Shown here in pieces: positions 3,938-32,206 of a DNA stretch of 35,804 nucleotides (position 1 is its first letter; the number at the start of each line of letters is the position of its first letter). The position numbers were made by a program, and so were the translations under genes. The stretch is taken from NCBI GenBank assembly GCA_964383645.1, contig CAYLII010000003.1:1-35804 (forward strand), written 5' to 3'. This DNA comes from an uncultured Methanosarcinales archaeon. Its GTDB lineage: Archaea > Nanobdellota > Nanobdellia > Woesearchaeales > JAGVZT01. The notes beneath the pieces are model-generated. The model had not been told where the DNA came from, ran no database searches, and saw only the letters and a program-made list of their open reading frames with translations.

Positions 3938-4828
3938 ATGGAACTTATATTTTTGGGCACGTCATGCATGATCCCCACCAAGGAGAGAAATACCTCTGCA
4001 ATGCTCCTCACATTCAAGGATGAGAATATCCTCATAGACTGCGGTGAGGGCACCCAAAGGCAGCTTAGGATAGCTGGAATCAGGCCTACGTGCATAACCA
4101 AGATACTCATAAGCCATTGGCATGGAGACCATGTTCTTGGACTTCCCGGCCTTCTCCAGACGCTTGGCGCCTCTGAATACACCGGAAAGCTAAGGATATA
4201 CGGGCCTGCAGGCAGCGCAAGGCAGGTGGAGAAGATGATGGATGCGTTTGTATTCGATAATAGGGTGAATTTTGAGGTTATGGACATAACAAAAGAGCGC
4301 TTCTTTGATAGCAAGGAATTCTGCCTTGAGGCGCTTCCGCTTGACCATTCCATAAGCTGCCTGGGCTTTAGCTTTATTGAGAAGGACAGGCTTAGGATTA
4401 ATGTAAAGAAAGCTGAAAAGCTGGGCATACCTGAAGGCCCCCTCATGGGCGAGCTTCAGCAAGGCAAGGCAGTCATGCACAAGGGTAAAAAGATTGAGCC
4501 TGAGGAAGTGACTTATACTGTTAAGGGCAAGAAAATTACATACATCGCAGACACGGTCATTACAGACAACTGCATAAAGCTTGCAAAAGACGCAGACCTA
4601 CTGATATGCGAGTCAGTCTATGAGTCCAAGCTTGACAACAAGGCTGAGGAGTACAAGCATCTTACCGCAAGACAGGCGGGAATGATTGCGAACCAGGCAG
4701 AGGTAAAGCAGCTTGTGCTCACCCATTTCTCACAGAGATACAAAAACACGCAGGATATAGAAGAGGACGCAAGAGTCGTATTCGACAAGGTCATATGCGC
4801 AAATGACTTCATGCGCCTCAAGCTCTGA
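3938..4828 (+). CDS. rnz: ribonuclease Z (tRNA 3' endonuclease), metallo-beta-lactamase fold
   Basis: N-terminal ELIFLGTS, the HxHxDH motif as ISHWHGDHVLGLPGLL, and a C-terminal LVLTHFSQRY. Size is typical for the short form of RNase Z. Confidence 0.88.
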   Translation: MELIFLGTSCMIPTKERNTSAMLLTFKDENILIDCGEGTQRQLRIAGIRPTCITKILISHWHGDHVLGLPGLLQTLGASEYTGKLRIYGPAGSARQVEKMMDAFVFDNRVNFEVMDITKERFFDSKEFCLEALPLDHSISCLGFSFIEKDRLRINVKKAEKLGIPEGPLMGELQQGKAVMHKGKKIEPEEVTYTVKGKKITYIADTVITDNCIKLAKDADLLICESVYESKLDNKAEEYKHLTARQAGMIANQAEVKQLVLTHFSQRYKNTQDIEEDARVVFDKVICANDFMRLKL

Positions 4829-5285: not shown

Positions 5286-5672
5286 ATGGTAGGAAAGCAA
5301 AAAGGAACCAACGCTGAACGTGAGCTAGTCCACATGTTCTGGGCAAAGGGCTGGGCAGCAGTGAGGGTGGCTGGCTCAGGAAGCTCTCACTATCCCTCGC
5401 CAGATGTGCTTGCCGGAAACAACCTCAGGAAGCTTGCCATAGAATGCAAGGCAGTTGGATCTACCAGCAGATATATATCCATAGGCCAGATTGAAGACCT
5501 AATCAAATTCTCGCAGATATTCGGGGCAGAGCCCTGGGTCGGCCTCAGATTTAACAGGGAGGAGTGGCTCTTTGTTGGAATTGAAGATCTGGAAAAAACA
5601 GAAGCCAGCTATGCCGCAAACCTGTTGACTGCAAAGCGCAAGGGGCTGCTATTTGAAGAGTTAATCAAGTGA
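5286..5672 (+). CDS. hjc: Holliday junction resolvase Hjc
   Basis: KGTNAERELVHMFWAKGWAAVRVAGSGS ... PDVLAGN ... AIECK carries the catalytic E..D..E.K arrangement. The size (128 aa) is typical of Hjc. Confidence 0.87.
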   Translation: MVGKQKGTNAERELVHMFWAKGWAAVRVAGSGSSHYPSPDVLAGNNLRKLAIECKAVGSTSRYISIGQIEDLIKFSQIFGAEPWVGLRFNREEWLFVGIEDLEKTEASYAANLLTAKRKGLLFEELIK

Positions 5673-24065: not shown

Positions 24066-24185
24066 GTGATGAACAGCTTTCCGGTTTTCCCGTATGAATA
24101 CAGTACCGACCAGAACGTAAGCCCGCTTGACTTCCGAGTTCGGGATGAGATCGGGTAGGGCCAGGCCACTCTGACCGTCCATCGA
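24066..24185 (-). rRNA. rrf: 5S ribosomal RNA (stand-alone)
   Basis: The minus strand reads GAUGGACGGUCAGAGUGGCCUGGCCCUACCCGAUCUCAUCCCGAACUCGGAAGUCAAGCGGGCUUACGUUCUGGUCGGUACUGUAUUCAUACGGGAAAACCGGAAAGCUGUUCAUC. It has the conserved CCCGAACUCGGAAGUCAAGC and GUACUG blocks. Helix I is formed by GAUGGACGG and CUGUUCAUC. The ends are accurate to about +/-3 nt. Confidence 0.9.
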
Positions 24186-28537: not shown

Positions 28538-28617
28538 CCCTATAATTCTCTTAGAATCTATTTTTTTCTTTGATCCATGCAAAGTTTTATATCTGCTCCA
28601 AGAACCGCTTTAGCGGT

Positions 28618-29334
28618 ATGAAATTTGGCAATCTCACCATCATAGGCACAAGCCACATCGCAAAAGAGAGCGTAGAAGAGATAAAGGGGTTCTTCAAAGA
28701 GGAAAAGCCAGACCTTGCGGCAATCGAGCTTGACCACCAGAGGTATCTTTCTATCACTTCAGGAAAACGGCAGAAGCCAAGCCTTGCTATGATCCCTAAA
28801 GTGGGCTTGCATGGGTTCATCTTTCTGATCATGGGGCATTGGGCCCAGGGAGCGCTTGGGAAGATGGTTGGTGTCGAGCCAGGCTCTGAGATGCTCACAA
28901 CCATAAAACTGGCCAAAAAGCACAAAGTTCCTCTCGCCCTGATAGACCAGGATATCCAGATAACCCTGAAGAGATTCTCTATAATTCCTGCAAGGGAAAA
29001 AGCCAGGCTGCTATGGGATGTATTTACAGGTCTTGTCACAAGAGGCTCAGACCTGAAAAAGATGGGGATAACCTCTGTCGACCTGGAGAGGGTGCCTGAC
29101 AGCGCACTTATCTCAAAGCTAATGGGCATGATGAGGAAACGATACCCCTATCTCTACAGGGTGCTTGTGGAAGAAAGAAACCTATACATGGCAAGAAACC
29201 TGTTCGGGATAATCTCATCAAATCCTGATAAAAGAGTGCTTGCGGTAGTTGGCGCGGGCCATGAAGAAGAGATACTCTCACTTGTAAAATTATATCTCGC
29301 CCATGCCAATAAACTTGCCAGCGCGGCAGTTTAA
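28618..29334 (+). CDS. TraB/PrgY-family protein
   Basis: LTIIGTSHIAKESVEEIKGFFKEEKPDLAAIELDHQRY and C-terminal VVGAGHEE, as in the TraB family. ATG 28618 is preferred. Confidence 0.75.
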   Translation: MKFGNLTIIGTSHIAKESVEEIKGFFKEEKPDLAAIELDHQRYLSITSGKRQKPSLAMIPKVGLHGFIFLIMGHWAQGALGKMVGVEPGSEMLTTIKLAKKHKVPLALIDQDIQITLKRFSIIPAREKARLLWDVFTGLVTRGSDLKKMGITSVDLERVPDSALISKLMGMMRKRYPYLYRVLVEERNLYMARNLFGIISSNPDKRVLAVVGAGHEEEILSLVKLYLAHANKLASAAV

Positions 29335-29339
29335 TAACA

Positions 29340-29347
29340 TTTAAATA
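29340..29347 (+). promoter_or_regulatory. TATA box upstream of tRNA-Trp
   Basis: TTTAAATA centred about 32 nt upstream of tRNA position 1. Confidence 0.55.
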
Positions 29348-29375
29348 TGCTCTCGGATTTCTGTGACGATAGCCT

Positions 29376-29573
29376 GGGGACGTGGTGTAACTTGGCTATC
29401 ACAGTTGGCTCCAGAACTGGAGCGCCGAGCTAAAAGCGATGACGAGAACGTGGTGTGTCCGGCGGATGAAGACACCAGCTGATCAGGGTTCAAAACAACA
29501 GACACTCTTTTGAAAACTGCGCCCGCGAAAACGGCGAAGATGGGTTCTGTTGGTGAAAGTCCCTGCGTCCCCA
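29376..29573 (+). tRNA. tRNA-Trp (anticodon CCA) with two introns (29415-29473 at 37/38; 29495-29559 at 59/60)
   Basis: Manual cloverleaf parse: GGGGACG TG GTGT AACTTGGCTA TCAC A GTTGG CTCCAG|intron1|A CCAGC TGAT CAGGG TTCAAA|intron2|T CCCTG CGTCCCC A. The acceptor stem has 7 Watson-Crick pairs and the T-arm becomes canonical after splicing. Bulge-helix-bulge geometry is present at both introns. A T-tract terminator follows. Confidence 0.8.
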
Positions 29574-29586
29574 TTTTTTCTTTTTT
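29574..29586 (+). terminator. T-tract terminator after tRNA-Trp
   Basis: TTTTTTCTTTTTT begins immediately after the discriminator A. Confidence 0.55.
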
Positions 29587-29668
29587 CTATCTTTCTCACC
29601 ACCTTCCCATATCCTTCTCCCACACAACTAATCGCCATAGCAAACTATAAATACCCTCTTGCTTGGGA

Positions 29669-30820
29669 ATGTCTCTCATGAAAGATAATCCCTCTCTTGA
29701 AGCAGTCTCTACACTTGTGGGTACAGTCATAGGCGCGGGTGTTTTGGGAATACCCTATCTTATAGCAAAAGCAGGCATCCTGAACGGCATAATCCTGATA
29801 GTCCTACTTGGTGCTGCTCTCACTATCCTCTATCTCTACTATGGTGAGATTGTTCTCAGGACAAAAAAGCTTCACCATCTTTCAGGTTATGCCGATAAAT
29901 ACCTGGGGAAATGGGGGAAGCTTGTTGCCACAGTCTCATTCATAATAAGCATGTATGGTGCGTTGGTGGCTTATCTTTTTGGCTCAGGCGCAGCCCTATC
30001 CTCTATTTTCGGGGGCGCTAGCATGCTATATAGCCTTGGGTTTATGGCCGTATGCGCAGGATTAATTTATATCGGAATAAAGGCGGTGGAACGCTCAGAG
30101 CCGGTTTTGATGATGGTAATAATTGTGTTAATCATCACCATATGTACGCTTAATTTTGGAAAGATCCATCCTGAAAATCTCACTGGCTTCAGACTTGACA
30201 CGCTGCTAATCCCCTATGGTGTGATAATGTTTGCCCTTTTTGGCGCAAACGCCATACCTGAGATGAAAGAAGAGCTGGCAGGGCATGAAAAAAACTTAGG
30301 GAAATGCATCATTCTCGGGATGCTTATCCCTGTAATAATCTATATCCTGTTCAGCACAGTGGTTGTGGGTGTGGTGGGAGCTGGCGGATTTGAGGCGCTT
30401 GATCAGGATAGCAGGATAGCTTCAATAGCGCTAGTACAATATGTTGGCCCGCATATGGCTGTTCTTGGAAACCTTTTTGCGGTCTTTGCAATCACTACCT
30501 CTTTCTTGTCTGTTGGGCTCTCCCTAAAAGAGATGTTCATGTTCGATTTTGGCCTAAACCCGAAACAGGCCATGTTTCTCACATTCCTGCCTCCTCTTGT
30601 GCCGTTCCTGTTCCGGCTGACTTCTTTTATAGATGTGCTTGAGATAATGGGCATAGCTGTTGGCGGCATCACTGCATTTCTCATAGTGCTCATGTTCTGG
30701 AACGCGAAAAAAGAGGGTGAGAGAAAGCCAGAATATTCGCTTAGCCCAAACCCGGCGATAGGATTATTCCTCTTGGGCTTAGTGCTGCTTGGCACTATTT
30801 ATTCCTTATTTATGCTCTAA
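29669..30820 (+). CDS. amino acid permease (Trp/Tyr-permease or AAAP-like family)
   Basis: About 11 TM helices. The N-terminal VGTVIGAGVLGIPYLIAKAG resembles the signature of aromatic and other amino-acid transporters of this superfamily. The substrate is not inferable. Confidence 0.7.
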   Translation: MSLMKDNPSLEAVSTLVGTVIGAGVLGIPYLIAKAGILNGIILIVLLGAALTILYLYYGEIVLRTKKLHHLSGYADKYLGKWGKLVATVSFIISMYGALVAYLFGSGAALSSIFGGASMLYSLGFMAVCAGLIYIGIKAVERSEPVLMMVIIVLIITICTLNFGKIHPENLTGFRLDTLLIPYGVIMFALFGANAIPEMKEELAGHEKNLGKCIILGMLIPVIIYILFSTVVVGVVGAGGFEALDQDSRIASIALVQYVGPHMAVLGNLFAVFAITTSFLSVGLSLKEMFMFDFGLNPKQAMFLTFLPPLVPFLFRLTSFIDVLEIMGIAVGGITAFLIVLMFWNAKKEGERKPEYSLSPNPAIGLFLLGLVLLGTIYSLFML

Positions 30821-32080: not shown

Positions 32081-32206
32081 GGGCCTGTAGCATAGCGGAT
32101 AGTGCGGTCGGCTTCGGAACCCATAAGGAAATGCGGGCGCCTGTGTCCGCATCCAGTGAATGGGTGGTGATACCGATTGACCCGGGTTCGAATCCTGGCA
32201 GGCTCG
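32081..32206 (+). tRNA. tRNA-Arg (anticodon UCG) with a 54-nt intron at 37/38 (32118-32171)
   Basis: GGGCCTG TA GCAT AGCGGATA GTGC G GTCGG CTTCGG|intron|A CCGAT TGAC CCGGG TTCGAAT CCTGG CAGGCTC G. The BHB has bulges GG|A (32116-18) and AT|A (32170-72), a 4-position central helix CUUC/GGUG (one U.U, one G.U) and a 6-bp inner helix ACCCAT/ATGGGT. Confidence 0.9.

What the first reader, a model, noticed from the sequence alone, without database searches (positions are those of the whole stretch)
29376..29573. tRNA-Trp(CCA) gene split by two introns, one in the T-loop, hidden beneath a spurious 77-aa ORF
The only thing the ORF track offers here is an antisense 77-aa ORF, but the + strand folds into a tRNA once two segments are removed. 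The exons are 29376-29414, 29474-29494 and 29560-29573. Joined, they give a 74-nt cloverleaf. It has a 7-bp all-Watson-Crick acceptor stem (GGGGACG/CGTCCCC), a D-loop containing GG, an anticodon stem GTTGG/CCAGC, an anticodon loop CUCCAGA (CCA = Trp), a T-arm CAGGG-TTCAAAT-CCCTG and a discriminator A. The run TTTTTTCTTTTTT follows. I predicted intron 2 (29495-29559, 65 nt) only from restoring the canonical TTCAAAT loop. The same two cut sites fall exactly in a bulge-helix-bulge. The T-stem is the outer helix, followed by a 3-nt bulge AG|T (29558-60). The 4-bp central helix pairs TTCA (29489-92) with TGAA (29554-57). A 3-nt bulge AA|A (29493-95) and an inner helix CAACAGA (29496-502)/TCTGTTG (29546-52) follow, with a single extra G at 29553. 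This is the geometric equivalent, in the T-arm, of the canonical 37/38 site. Intron 1 (29415-29473, 59 nt) sits at 37/38 with a relaxed BHB: bulges AG|A and AC|A, and a central helix CUCC/GAAG with one C.A mismatch. Non-canonical and multiple tRNA introns are known mainly from Thermoproteales and a few uncultivated lineages whose splicing endonucleases have broad specificity. A PolD- and histone-bearing genome with a 59/60 intron is therefore informative both taxonomically and about the type of endonuclease it encodes.
Basis: partly seen in the sequence, partly recalled or inferred. Interest (0 to 1): 0.75.

Follow-up and report, generated by a model that had tools for sequence, protein, structure and literature searches.

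The report
Twice-split tRNA-Trp gene with guide intron
The region is a real tryptophan tRNA gene of a Woesearchaeota-like (DPANN) archaeon, broken by one intron next to the anticodon and one inside the T-loop; the first intron also carries a conserved protein-binding kink-turn and two short sequences complementary to the tRNA, like the methylation-guide intron known in other archaea.

Summary
Observation confirmed and interpretation supported.

- **The gene.** Joining 29376-29414, 29474-29494 and 29560-29573 gives a 74-nt tRNA-Trp(CCA). ARAGORN calls it only after splicing.
- **Relatives.** Four syntenic relatives keep the exons 97-100% identical. Intron 2 varies from 36 to 94 nt and keeps only its ends.
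- **Orthologues without intron 2.** L007 has 70/74 identical exons and lacks intron 2. It reaches 43.4 bits on the Rfam tRNA model.
- **Intron 2 (59/60).** It sits in a near-textbook 3-4-3 bulge-helix-bulge. The unconstrained minimum-energy fold reproduces this structure. Twelve unrelated T-loop introns in related genomes all end in YGARAG|T.
- **The antisense 77-aa ORF** is not conserved as a protein.
Intron 1 is not a plain spacer. In 72 distinct relatives it reads antisense(C34) – NUGA – hairpin – RAU-GA, a box C'/D'-type kink-turn with covarying pairs. A second antisense element to position 39 follows at box C/D spacing. This matches the euryarchaeal tRNA-Trp box C/D intron, but with only one clear kink-turn.

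Multi-intron and 59/60 sites are already known, so this is a new member of a known kind. The intron-1 architecture is the more interesting part. The splicing-endonuclease type cannot be read from this window.

The parts
29341..29348 (+). TTTAAATA, putative archaeal TATA box, 28-35 nt upstream of the mature 5' end
   Evidence: Invariant in the four close relatives, inside a conserved block TAACATTTAAATATGCTC. TTTAAATA or TTTATATA lies at a similar distance in L006 and L007. Promoter function is inferred.
29376..29414 (+). Exon 1: acceptor 5' strand, D arm, anticodon stem 5' strand, and loop nucleotides CUCCAG up to position 37
   Evidence: Identical or one difference in relatives.
29415..29473 (+). 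Intron 1 (59 nt) at 37/38, with a relaxed BHB (central helix CUCC/GAAG with a C34.A mismatch; bulges AG|A and AC|A)
   Evidence: ARAGORN -i calls it once intron 2 is removed. It is 85-97% identical in close relatives. GAAG occurs in 55 of 72 homologues, against perfect GGAG in 4. The BHB conformer is 6 kcal/mol above the MFE.
29415..29424 (+). Antisense element to the anticodon loop (AACUGGAGCG). UGGAGC pairs with G31-A36, and the base opposite C34 is the 5th upstream of the D-type box
   Evidence: Read from the sequence. The same element is present in about 67 archaeal genomes, although the search pattern required it. The MFE of the precursor forms this hairpin.
29425..29428 (+). D/D'-type box CCGA (CUGA in L001, AUGA in most relatives)
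29429..29437 (+). Stem I of the kink-turn (GCU-AAA-AGC)
   Evidence: Stem I is 2-8 bp in 72 homologues, often capped by GNRA or UUCG loops. It covaries in RNAalifold.
29438..29445 (+). C/C'-type box: 3-nt bulge GAU followed by GACGA (tandem G.A with the D-type box; G29444 pairs with C29425)
   Evidence: The bulge is RAU in 66 of 72 sequences. The D1:C6 pair is A-U 37, C-G 10, U-A 4, G-C 1, U.G 1. D2:C5 is U.U in 35. There is a weak Rfam hit to C/D sRNA models, E = 0.08.
29451..29456 (+). Second antisense element UGGUGU, complementary to AC|ACCA (last two intron bases plus positions 38-41). The partner of C39 is the 8th base after the C-type box
   Evidence: It covaries with the last two intron bases (AG/CU, AU/AU, AC/GU, GC/GC, UU/AA, UC/GA) and with position 41 (A-U, G-C, C-G, U-A). 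Spacing is 8-10 nt in 39 of 40 sequences with at least 6 bp.
29466..29472 (+). AUGAAGA at the 3' end of intron 1. GAAG is the BHB central-helix strand. The heptamer also resembles box C (6/7), but no partner D box was found
   Evidence: Status is inconclusive.
29474..29494 (+). Exon 2: position 38, anticodon stem 3' strand, variable loop, T stem 5' strand, and T-loop UUCAAA
29495..29559 (+). Intron 2 (65 nt) at 59/60 in the T-loop. The BHB is T stem / bulge AG|U / UUCA-UGAA / bulge AA|A / inner helix CAACAGA-UCUGUUG, with an extra G at 29553
   Evidence: The MFE reproduces it. Length is 36-94 nt in close relatives, with only the ends conserved. The inner helix has compensatory changes (A-U to U-A in L004). 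It is absent in the syntenic orthologue L007. Twelve unrelated 59/60 introns end in YGARAG|T.
29560..29573 (+). Exon 3: U60, T stem 3' strand, acceptor 3' strand, and discriminator A. No encoded CCA
29574..29586 (+). T-run TTTTTTCTTTTTT, a likely transcription stop
   Evidence: Conserved in relatives. Function is inferred.
29341..29574 (-). Antisense 77-aa ORF, judged spurious
   Evidence: the translation is shared only over the exon-coded stretches, and the frame shifts with intron-2 length.

Best explanation
29376-29573 is the functional tRNA-Trp(CCA) gene of a Woesearchaeota-like DPANN archaeon.

**Proposed pathway.**
- It is transcribed from its own TATA box and stops at the downstream T-run. 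This step is inferred.
- The precursor carries two bulge-helix-bulge introns. The archaeal splicing endonuclease cuts at four sites: 29414|15, 29473|74, 29494|95 and 29559|60.
- The tRNA ligase joins the three exons, and CCA is added afterwards. These steps are inferred from the established archaeal pathway.

**Intron 2** is a lineage-variable insertion whose only conserved parts are those that build the BHB with the T arm.

**Intron 1** is a functional RNA in its own right.
- Its 5' end pairs with the anticodon loop and is followed by a kink-turn (CCGA / stem-loop / GAU-GACGA) that should bind L7Ae.
- Eight bases after the C-type box, a second element pairs across the 3' splice junction.
- Both duplexes place tRNA positions 34 and 39 where a box C/D particle would 2'-O-methylate them, as shown experimentally for the Haloferax tRNA-Trp intron.
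- The guide pairings and the intron-1 BHB are mutually exclusive folds.

**Confidence.** About 0.93 for 'real tRNA-Trp gene with these two spliced introns'. About 0.6 for 'intron 1 guides methylation of C34 and C39'.
For: **Gene and introns.**
- ARAGORN calls tRNA-Trp on the joined exons.
- Synteny holds, with exon identity 97-100% against a variable intron 2.
- The cloverleaf covaries in 38 homologues: 96.2% paired, 11 pairs changed on both sides, 0/500 shuffles.
- The Rfam tRNA model scores 41-45 bits on orthologues that lack intron 2.
- The MFE reproduces the T-arm BHB.
- Twelve independent 59/60 introns share only the BHB-forming ends.

**Intron 1.**
- The kink-turn is conserved in 72 distinct sequences, with covarying stem I and a covarying D1:C6 pair.
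- The position-39 antisense element covaries with both the intron end and exon position 41, at fixed spacing.
- There is a weak Rfam hit to C/D sRNA models.

**Precedent.** Box C/D tRNA-Trp introns guide positions 34 and 39 and persist as circles (PMC11408192; PMC3326292).
Against: - There is no RNA evidence for splicing or methylation.
- The Rfam model could not be run on the joined exons themselves.
- The whole genome is not available, so a second, uninterrupted tRNA-Trp gene cannot be excluded.
- Folding z-scores are unremarkable.
- The intron-1 BHB is weak: one mismatch, no adjoining inner helix, and 6 kcal/mol above the MFE.
- For the guide function, only one kink-turn is evident. The box expected after the position-39 element is UCCG here, with no GA. 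The duplexes are short (6-7 bp). The position-34 element was required by my search pattern, so its conservation is not independent evidence. The presence of Nop5 and fibrillarin in this lineage was not shown (one search was uninformative).
- My parser required stem complementarity when it placed exon boundaries, which inflates the paired fraction.
Confidence: 0.9

Rival explanations
1. Intron 1 is spliced as described, but its kink-turn and complementary stretches serve only folding or processing. For example, L7Ae could act as a chaperone that switches the precursor between conformers or stabilises the excised intron. No ribose methylation would be guided.
For: Only one canonical kink-turn is present. 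No GA box follows the position-39 element in the window (UCCG). In the long form the candidate UUGA is base-paired in hairpin P2, and compensatory changes sometimes destroy its GA. The duplexes are only 6-9 bp. The position-34 duplex is a hairpin with a 4-nt loop in cis.
Against: The two antisense elements target exactly the two positions (34 and 39) methylated by the euryarchaeal tRNA-Trp intron. The fifth-base rule holds for C34. The C39 partner keeps box C/D spacing of 8-10 nt in 39 of 40 sequences. Half-size C/D RNAs with one kink-turn are active in vitro; this last point is my own knowledge and was not checked here.
Confidence: 0.3
2. The locus is a decaying tRNA pseudogene. The T-loop insertion inactivated it, and another gene supplies tRNA-Trp.
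For: Standard tRNA finders do not call it. The rest of the genome is not available.
Against: Exons are 97-100% identical across relatives, while the insertion evolves freely yet always keeps a precise BHB. T-stem pairs on either side of the insertion covary. The same design recurs in 12 independent genes. The promoter-like box and the T-run are conserved.
Confidence: 0.04
3. The antisense 77-aa ORF (29341-29574, minus strand) is a real small protein gene, and the tRNA-like fold is incidental.
For: An ATG-initiated ORF exists, and stop-free stretches of 48-79 codons also occur in relatives.
Against: The predicted peptides agree only where they overlie exons, and they change frame across intron 2. 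Length changes of -29, -3 and +29 nt are not codon-preserving. The plus-strand RNA signals explain all the conservation.
Confidence: 0.01

Closest known systems
Multiple-intron tRNA genes with BHB introns at non-canonical positions (Thermoproteales; also reported as increased in DPANN lineages by Kaneta et al. 2018, PMC5829648)
   Same: Protein-spliced BHB introns. More than one intron per gene. An intron lies outside the anticodon loop. The intron interior is free to vary while the BHB-forming ends are kept.
   Different: The host is a PolD-bearing Woesearchaeota-like DPANN archaeon. The non-canonical intron has a near-canonical 3-4-3 BHB, whereas the canonical-position intron is the relaxed one. 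No specific description of this gene family was found in the searchable library.
59/60 T-loop junction of permuted tRNAs in Thermofilum pendens and Cyanidioschyzon merolae (Chan et al. 2011, PMC3218864)
   Same: The same processing site (59/60) and the same way of building the BHB from the T arm.
   Different: Those are circularly permuted genes processed through a circle. Here the gene is collinear and the BHB encloses an ordinary intron.
Box C/D intron of euryarchaeal pre-tRNA-Trp (Haloferax volcanii, Pyrococcus), which guides Cm34 and Um39
   Same: The same tRNA and the same intron site. There are antisense elements to positions 34 and 39, and the position-39 duplex spans the intron-exon junction. 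There is a D'-loop-C' kink-turn between the two guides. The guide folds exclude the BHB fold.
   Different: The intron is much shorter (59 nt against 105 nt). The position-34 element starts 3 nt after the 5' splice site, leaving no room for an upstream box C. No clear terminal C/D kink-turn is present. The box after the position-39 element is degenerate. The architecture of the euryarchaeal intron is recalled from abstracts and reviews, because the primary papers were not held.
Sulfolobus solfataricus tRNA-Trp intron (65 nt, stable circle; Danan et al. 2012, PMC3326292)
   Same: Similar size, with two short (7-bp) complementarities to positions 34 and 39.
   Different: That intron lacks consensus C and D boxes. 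This one has a well-formed, covarying kink-turn.
Permuted C/D box sRNA24 of Nanoarchaeum equitans (Randau 2012, PMC3491384)
   Same: A DPANN archaeon. The box order is canonical only in the circular RNA.
   Different: That is a free-standing sRNA gene with all four boxes. Here the RNA is a tRNA intron, and the second box pair is not demonstrated.

Membership tests
tRNA (Rfam RF00005, cloverleaf) | A 7-bp acceptor stem, D arm, 5-bp anticodon stem with a 7-nt loop (U33), 5-bp T stem with a UUCRAAU loop, and a discriminator base | tested here: met
   The joined exons are called tRNA-Trp(cca), 74 nt, by ARAGORN. D-stem pair 13:22 is U.U.
tRNA (Rfam RF00005, cloverleaf) | Covariance-model score above the gathering threshold | tested here: inconclusive
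   The tool cannot scan the joined exons, and the unspliced locus gives no hit. Orthologues without intron 2 score 41-45 bits against a threshold of 29. L007 shares 70/74 exon bases.
tRNA (Rfam RF00005, cloverleaf) | Compensatory changes maintain the four stems across homologues | tested here: met
   96.2% of cells are paired, 11 pairs changed on both sides, 0/500 shuffles, and slid controls give 41-52%. Caveat: exon boundaries were placed using stem complementarity.
Archaeal bulge-helix-bulge (BHB) intron | Two 3-nt bulges separated by a 4-bp helix, with cleavage after the second bulge base on each strand, flanked by outer and inner helices | tested here: met
   Intron 2 has T stem / AG|U / UUCA-UGAA / AA|A / 7-bp inner helix, with one extra unpaired G. 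The unconstrained MFE gives this structure. Intron 1 is only a relaxed form, with a C.A mismatch and no adjoining inner helix.
Archaeal bulge-helix-bulge (BHB) intron | The intron interior is free to vary, and presence or absence differs among orthologues | tested here: met
   Intron 2 is 36, 62, 65 and 94 nt in close relatives, 40 nt in L006 and absent in L007.
Archaeal bulge-helix-bulge (BHB) intron | Splicing endonuclease and ligase are encoded by the genome, and spliced RNA is observed | not testable with these tools
   No EndA or RtcB was found among the window's genes. No transcript data are available.
Archaeal box C/D guide RNA | A kink-turn formed by a C-type box (RUGAUGA) and a D-type box (CUGA): canonical stem, 3-nt bulge, tandem G.A pairs | tested here: met
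   CCGA / GCU-AAA-AGC / GAU / GACGA is present. In 72 homologues the bulge is RAU in 66. D1:C6 covaries through four Watson-Crick types. D2:C5 is U.U in 35.
Archaeal box C/D guide RNA | A second kink-turn (two box pairs: C/D and C'/D') | tested here: not met
   A box-C-like AUGAAGA lies at the intron's 3' end, but no partner D box with a workable stem and bulge was found in any form. In the long form UUGA is paired in hairpin P2.
Archaeal box C/D guide RNA | An antisense element ending one base before the D/D' box, with the target base opposite the fifth base upstream | tested here: met
   C34 lies opposite the 5th base upstream of CCGA. For position 39 the spacing from the C-type box is canonical (8th base), but the box that follows is UCCG here.
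Archaeal box C/D guide RNA | Guide duplex of about 10-12 bp | tested here: not met
   The duplexes are 6-7 bp in the window and up to 9 bp in relatives.
Archaeal box C/D guide RNA | L7Ae, Nop5 and fibrillarin are present, and the target is methylated | not testable with these tools
   None of these genes is in the window. A tblastn of 673 kb of related loci found only one L7Ae and no fibrillarin, which is uninformative.

The most novel reading that the evidence does not exclude
Intron 1 may be a circularly permuted box C/D guide. The box-C-like AUGAAGA at its 3' end would come to lie 11 nt upstream of the D-type box only after the excised intron is circularised. That would restore the order C – guide(34) – D' – C' – guide(39). 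The tRNA-Trp intron of Woesearchaeota would then become a complete methylation guide only as a by-product of splicing. Together with the mosaic of up to three introns in this one gene across the order, it would define a DPANN-specific way of making and modifying tRNA-Trp.
Probability: 0.2. Interest if true: 0.65.

Novelty: new member of a known kind. Interest (0 to 1): 0.42.

Why it matters
**Practical.** This is probably the tRNA-Trp gene of the genome, and ARAGORN in default mode and the Rfam tRNA model both miss it. Genomes of this group would then look as if they lack tRNA-Trp. Kaneta et al. 2018 noted exactly this kind of 'missing tRNA' problem in DPANN genomes.

**Biological.**
- T-loop (59/60) BHB introns recur in Woesearchaeota tRNA genes, so their splicing endonuclease must work at several sites in one precursor.
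- The link between the tRNA-Trp intron and guide elements for positions 34 and 39, known from Euryarchaeota and hinted at in Sulfolobus, extends to a DPANN order in a stripped-down single-kink-turn form.
- This form offers a small natural substrate for asking how few elements a box C/D guide needs, and how the guide folds and splicing folds are ordered.

Tried and rejected
- **tRNA finders on the raw locus.** ARAGORN in default mode and with introns allowed found nothing on the unspliced locus.
- **Rfam on the raw locus.** It gave no tRNA hit at gathering threshold or at E <= 10. Only weak C/D sRNA hits appeared.
- **Finding the source contig.** An exact look-up of the window's permease failed twice, and the cluster look-up gave no name.
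- **Folding energy as evidence.** The z-scores are too weak to use.
- **Second kink-turn with the exon-2 CUGA.** I tested box-C-like AUGAAGA (29466-72) against CUGA (29479-82). It was rejected because no canonical stem can form next to the bulge and the loop would be only 7 nt.
- **Second kink-turn with UUGA in the long-form intron.** It was rejected because the bulge would be 5 nt, and UUGA is Watson-Crick paired in hairpin P2 with compensatory changes.
- **A helix C9-G13 / C46-G50 inside intron 1.** The MFE shows it, but L004 and L005 break it.
- **The 9-nt repeat ACGTGGTGT.** It is shared by exon 1 (29380-88) and intron 1 (29448-56). It shrinks to 7 nt in L001 and disappears in L004, so it probably arises from the position-39 antisense element by chance.
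- **Primary papers.** The papers on the euryarchaeal intron (PMC92551, PMC275556) and Sugahara 2007 (PMC1852824) are not held.
Full report
**1. What is in the sequence**

The three proposed exons are 39, 21 and 14 nt. Joined, they give GGGGACGTGGTGTAACTTGGCTATCACAGTTGGCTCCAGACCAGCTGATCAGGGTTCAAATCCCTGCGTCCCCA. Intron 1 is 29415-29473 (59 nt) and intron 2 is 29495-29559 (65 nt).

ARAGORN behaves as follows:
- It finds nothing on the unspliced DNA, with or without its intron option.
- It calls tRNA-Trp(cca) on the joined exons.
- It calls tRNA-Trp with a 59-nt intron at the canonical site when only intron 2 is removed.

At gathering threshold, Rfam reports only a 5S rRNA (24068-24182, minus strand) and an intron-containing tRNA at 32081-32206 in the whole window. 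The gene has no encoded CCA. It is followed by TTTTTTCTTTTTT.

**2. Is it more than chance?**

Folding energy does not answer this. The precursor and the T-arm segment fold only 1.2-1.4 standard deviations better than shuffles. Comparison with relatives does answer it.

The flanking genes are a TraB-family protein (28570-29334) and a Trp/Tyr-type permease (29663-30820). Homologues of the permease at 56-78% identity lie on contigs with the same TraB – gap – permease order. Aligning the gaps and comparing region by region gives:

| Region | Identity among close relatives |
|---|---|
| Exons | 72-74 of 74 |
| Intron 1 | 85-97% |
| Intron 2 | 48-72%, with lengths 36, 62, 65 and 94 nt |
| Flanks | 62-83% |

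Only the two ends of intron 2 are conserved (AACAAC... and ...GGTGAAAG). An upstream block containing TTTAAATA (29341-29348) and the downstream T-run are also conserved.

A more distant syntenic relative, L006, has a 40-nt T-loop intron of unrelated sequence. The next, L007, has no T-loop intron at all and shares 70/74 exon bases. Rfam's tRNA model scores L007 at 43.4 bits. It scores three other orthologues that have only the canonical intron at 41-45 bits, against a threshold of 29.

I also aligned 38 distinct spliced homologues. On that alignment the cloverleaf is 96.2% paired, and 11 of 21 pairs change on both sides. No shuffle out of 500 reached this, and slid controls give 41-52% paired. 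Acceptor, anticodon and T stems are all 100% paired. One caveat applies: my parser used stem complementarity to place the exon boundaries, so the paired fraction is somewhat favoured.

**3. Intron 2**

- T stem CAGGG/CCCUG
- 4-bp helix UUCA/UGAA
- 3-nt bulges AA|A and AG|U
- 7-bp inner helix CAACAGA/UCUGUUG
- a single unpaired G at 29553

The close relatives fold the same way, with compensatory changes in the inner helix.

Across 673 kb of related archaeal DNA I found 12 distinct T-loop introns of 17-94 nt at the same site. They include another tRNA species next to tRNA-Trp in L038, L051 and L060. Their interiors are unrelated. All begin after UUCAAA, all end in YGARAG followed by U, and those inspected have an inner helix next to the bulge.

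The cut sites are unambiguous, because sliding either one changes the T-loop. 59/60 is a known BHB site: the halves of the permuted tRNAs of Thermofilum pendens and Cyanidioschyzon merolae join there (PMC3218864).

**4. Intron 1**

The bulges are AG|A and AC|A, and no inner helix adjoins them. Forcing this fold costs 6 kcal/mol relative to the MFE (-15.6 against -21.9). In the MFE the anticodon loop pairs with the first bases of the intron instead.

*A weak Rfam hit prompted a wider look.* At a permissive threshold Rfam gave weak matches to archaeal C/D sRNA models (sR28, E = 0.08). I therefore scanned one genome per species for GGCTCCAGNNNTGGAGCGNNGAGC. This returned 82 loci, about 67 of them archaeal: mostly labelled Woesearchaeota or Nanoarchaeota, plus one Undinarchaeota. 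The remaining 15 were bacterial chance hits.

*The kink-turn.* In 72 distinct intron sequences, the part not fixed by the pattern is strikingly regular. The order is NNN-UGGAGCG, then NUGA, then a hairpin of 2-8 bp often capped by GNRA or UUCG, then a 3-nt bulge, then GA.
- The bulge is RAU in 66 of 72 sequences.
- The first base of NUGA pairs with the fourth base after the bulge as A-U 37, C-G 10, U-A 4, G-C 1 and U.G 1. I calculated by hand that about 34 pairs would be expected if the two positions were independent.
- The neighbouring pair is U.U in 35.

This is the anatomy of a box C/D kink-turn of the internal (D' – loop – C') kind. In the window it is CCGA (29425-28), GCU-AAA-AGC (29429-37) and GAU-GACGA (29438-45). 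The base opposite C34 is the fifth upstream of CCGA, which is the box C/D rule.

*A second antisense element.* UGGUGU (29451-56) is complementary to the last two intron bases plus positions 38-41.
- Across relatives it covaries with the last two intron bases in six combinations: AG/CU, AU/AU, AC/GU, GC/GC, UU/AA and UC/GA.
- It also covaries with position 41 through A-U, G-C, C-G and U-A.
- The partner of position 39 sits 8-10 bases after the C-type box in 39 of the 40 sequences with at least 6 bp. Eight is the canonical value, and it is the value in the window.

*Precedent.* The tRNA-Trp intron of Haloferax and other Euryarchaeota is a box C/D RNA that guides methylation of exactly positions 34 and 39. 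It acts in trans and persists as a circle (PMC11408192; PMC3326292). The Sulfolobus intron has two 7-bp complementarities to the same positions but no boxes.

**5. What does not fit a full box C/D RNA**

- I could not find a second kink-turn. The 3' end of the intron (AUGAAGA, 29466-72) resembles box C. GAAG is kept in 55 of 72 sequences, although GGAG would pair perfectly with CUCC and occurs in only 4. That suggests a second constraint on these bases.
- No D-type partner for it gives a workable stem and bulge.
- In the 77-82-nt form of the intron, the candidate UUGA is Watson-Crick paired in a covarying hairpin.
- In the window the corresponding bases are UCCG.
- The guide duplexes are short, 6-7 bp.
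- If the intron is circularised, AUGAAGA would lie 11 nt upstream of the D-type box, which restores the canonical order. A permuted C/D sRNA that is canonical only as a circle is known in Nanoarchaeum (PMC3491384). I rate this reading as possible, not shown.

**6. The antisense ORF**

The antisense ORF (29341-29574) is present. In relatives its translation agrees only over the exon-coded stretches, and it changes frame with intron-2 length. It is an artefact of the conserved RNA gene on the other strand.

**7. Context and the endonuclease question**

The window encodes the following:
- replication and repair proteins: PolD large and small subunits, MCM, Cdc6, RFC and Hjc
- transcription and translation factors: TBP and aIF2-beta
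- others: SRP54, Alba and endonuclease V

This is an archaeal core set. Relatives are labelled Woesearchaeota. No EndA, RtcB, L7Ae, Nop5 or fibrillarin gene lies in the window.

Kaneta et al. 2018 report that several DPANN lineages carry alpha4-type EndA with an extra loop (L3), associated with more disrupted tRNA genes. They also note that some tRNAs of these genomes remain unfound.

The intron-2 BHB is near canonical, so it does not by itself demand a broad-specificity enzyme. The relaxed motif is intron 1.

**8. Verdict**

The gene is one member of a widespread pattern in this order. In that pattern tRNA-Trp carries a universal guide-like intron at 37/38, plus a changing set of extra BHB introns in the D loop, near position 25, at 53/54 and at 59/60. 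It is a new member of a known kind. The single-kink-turn guide intron is the part most worth following up.

Noticed in passing
window 32081-32206 (+): A second intron-containing tRNA. Rfam tRNA scores 47 bits. The intron ends in GGTGAT|ACC, like some tRNA-Trp introns of relatives, and it contains GTGAAT and GGTGAT motifs. It was not examined for a kink-turn.
   Followed up: partly
window 24068-24182 (-): A 5S rRNA gene standing alone (Rfam 71.9 bits).
   Followed up: no
window 28570-30820; L001, L004, L005, L006, L007: The tRNA-Trp gene sits directly upstream of a Trp/Tyr-family permease gene, and this order (TraB – tRNA-Trp – permease) is conserved down to 56% permease identity. Whether the pairing of a Trp tRNA with a putative aromatic amino-acid transporter means anything is unknown.
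   Followed up: no
L026, L037, L041, L047, L049, L057, L063, L067, L074 (about 15/16); L060, L073, L077, L047, L049, L074 (near position 25); L022, L023, L026, L046, L053, L071 (53/54): tRNA-Trp genes of other Woesearchaeota-like genomes carry further insertions. One class lies in the D loop (for example L041 GTACAA|TCCACGGAAGTGGGTACAA|CCTGG, with a GUAC/GUAC central helix). Another lies after about position 25, and another between T stem and T loop. This gives up to three introns per gene. L071 seems to have both a 53/54 intron and a second T-loop intron. The boundaries were placed by a simple parser, not checked one by one.
   Followed up: partly
L038, L051, L060 (for example L060 about 5359-5420): Another tRNA gene (acceptor 3' strand CAGGCCC) lies just upstream of tRNA-Trp and also has a 59/60 T-loop intron of 20-29 nt, so the T-loop site is used in more than one tRNA species.
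   Followed up: no
window 29380-29388 and 29448-29456: A 9-nt direct repeat ACGTGGTGT is shared by exon 1 (positions 5-13) and intron 1, where it overlaps the position-39 antisense element. It shrinks to 7 nt in L001 and is lost in L004, so it is probably chance.
   Followed up: partly
L007 about 770-800 and 1290-1320; L005 1290-1560: In L007 the tRNA gene is flanked on both sides by copies of AATAACGAAAATCCG... In L005 the gap between the tRNA and the permease is about 270 nt longer and holds inverted-repeat-like sequence (GGGATGAATGC..., AAAATCCGATATGGAAATCGG). These may be small mobile or repeat elements.
   Followed up: no
window 3938-4828 (+): A metallo-beta-lactamase-fold protein with a weak match to the tRNase Z N-terminal domain (E = 2.7e-4), a possible tRNA 3'-end processing enzyme.
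   Followed up: no
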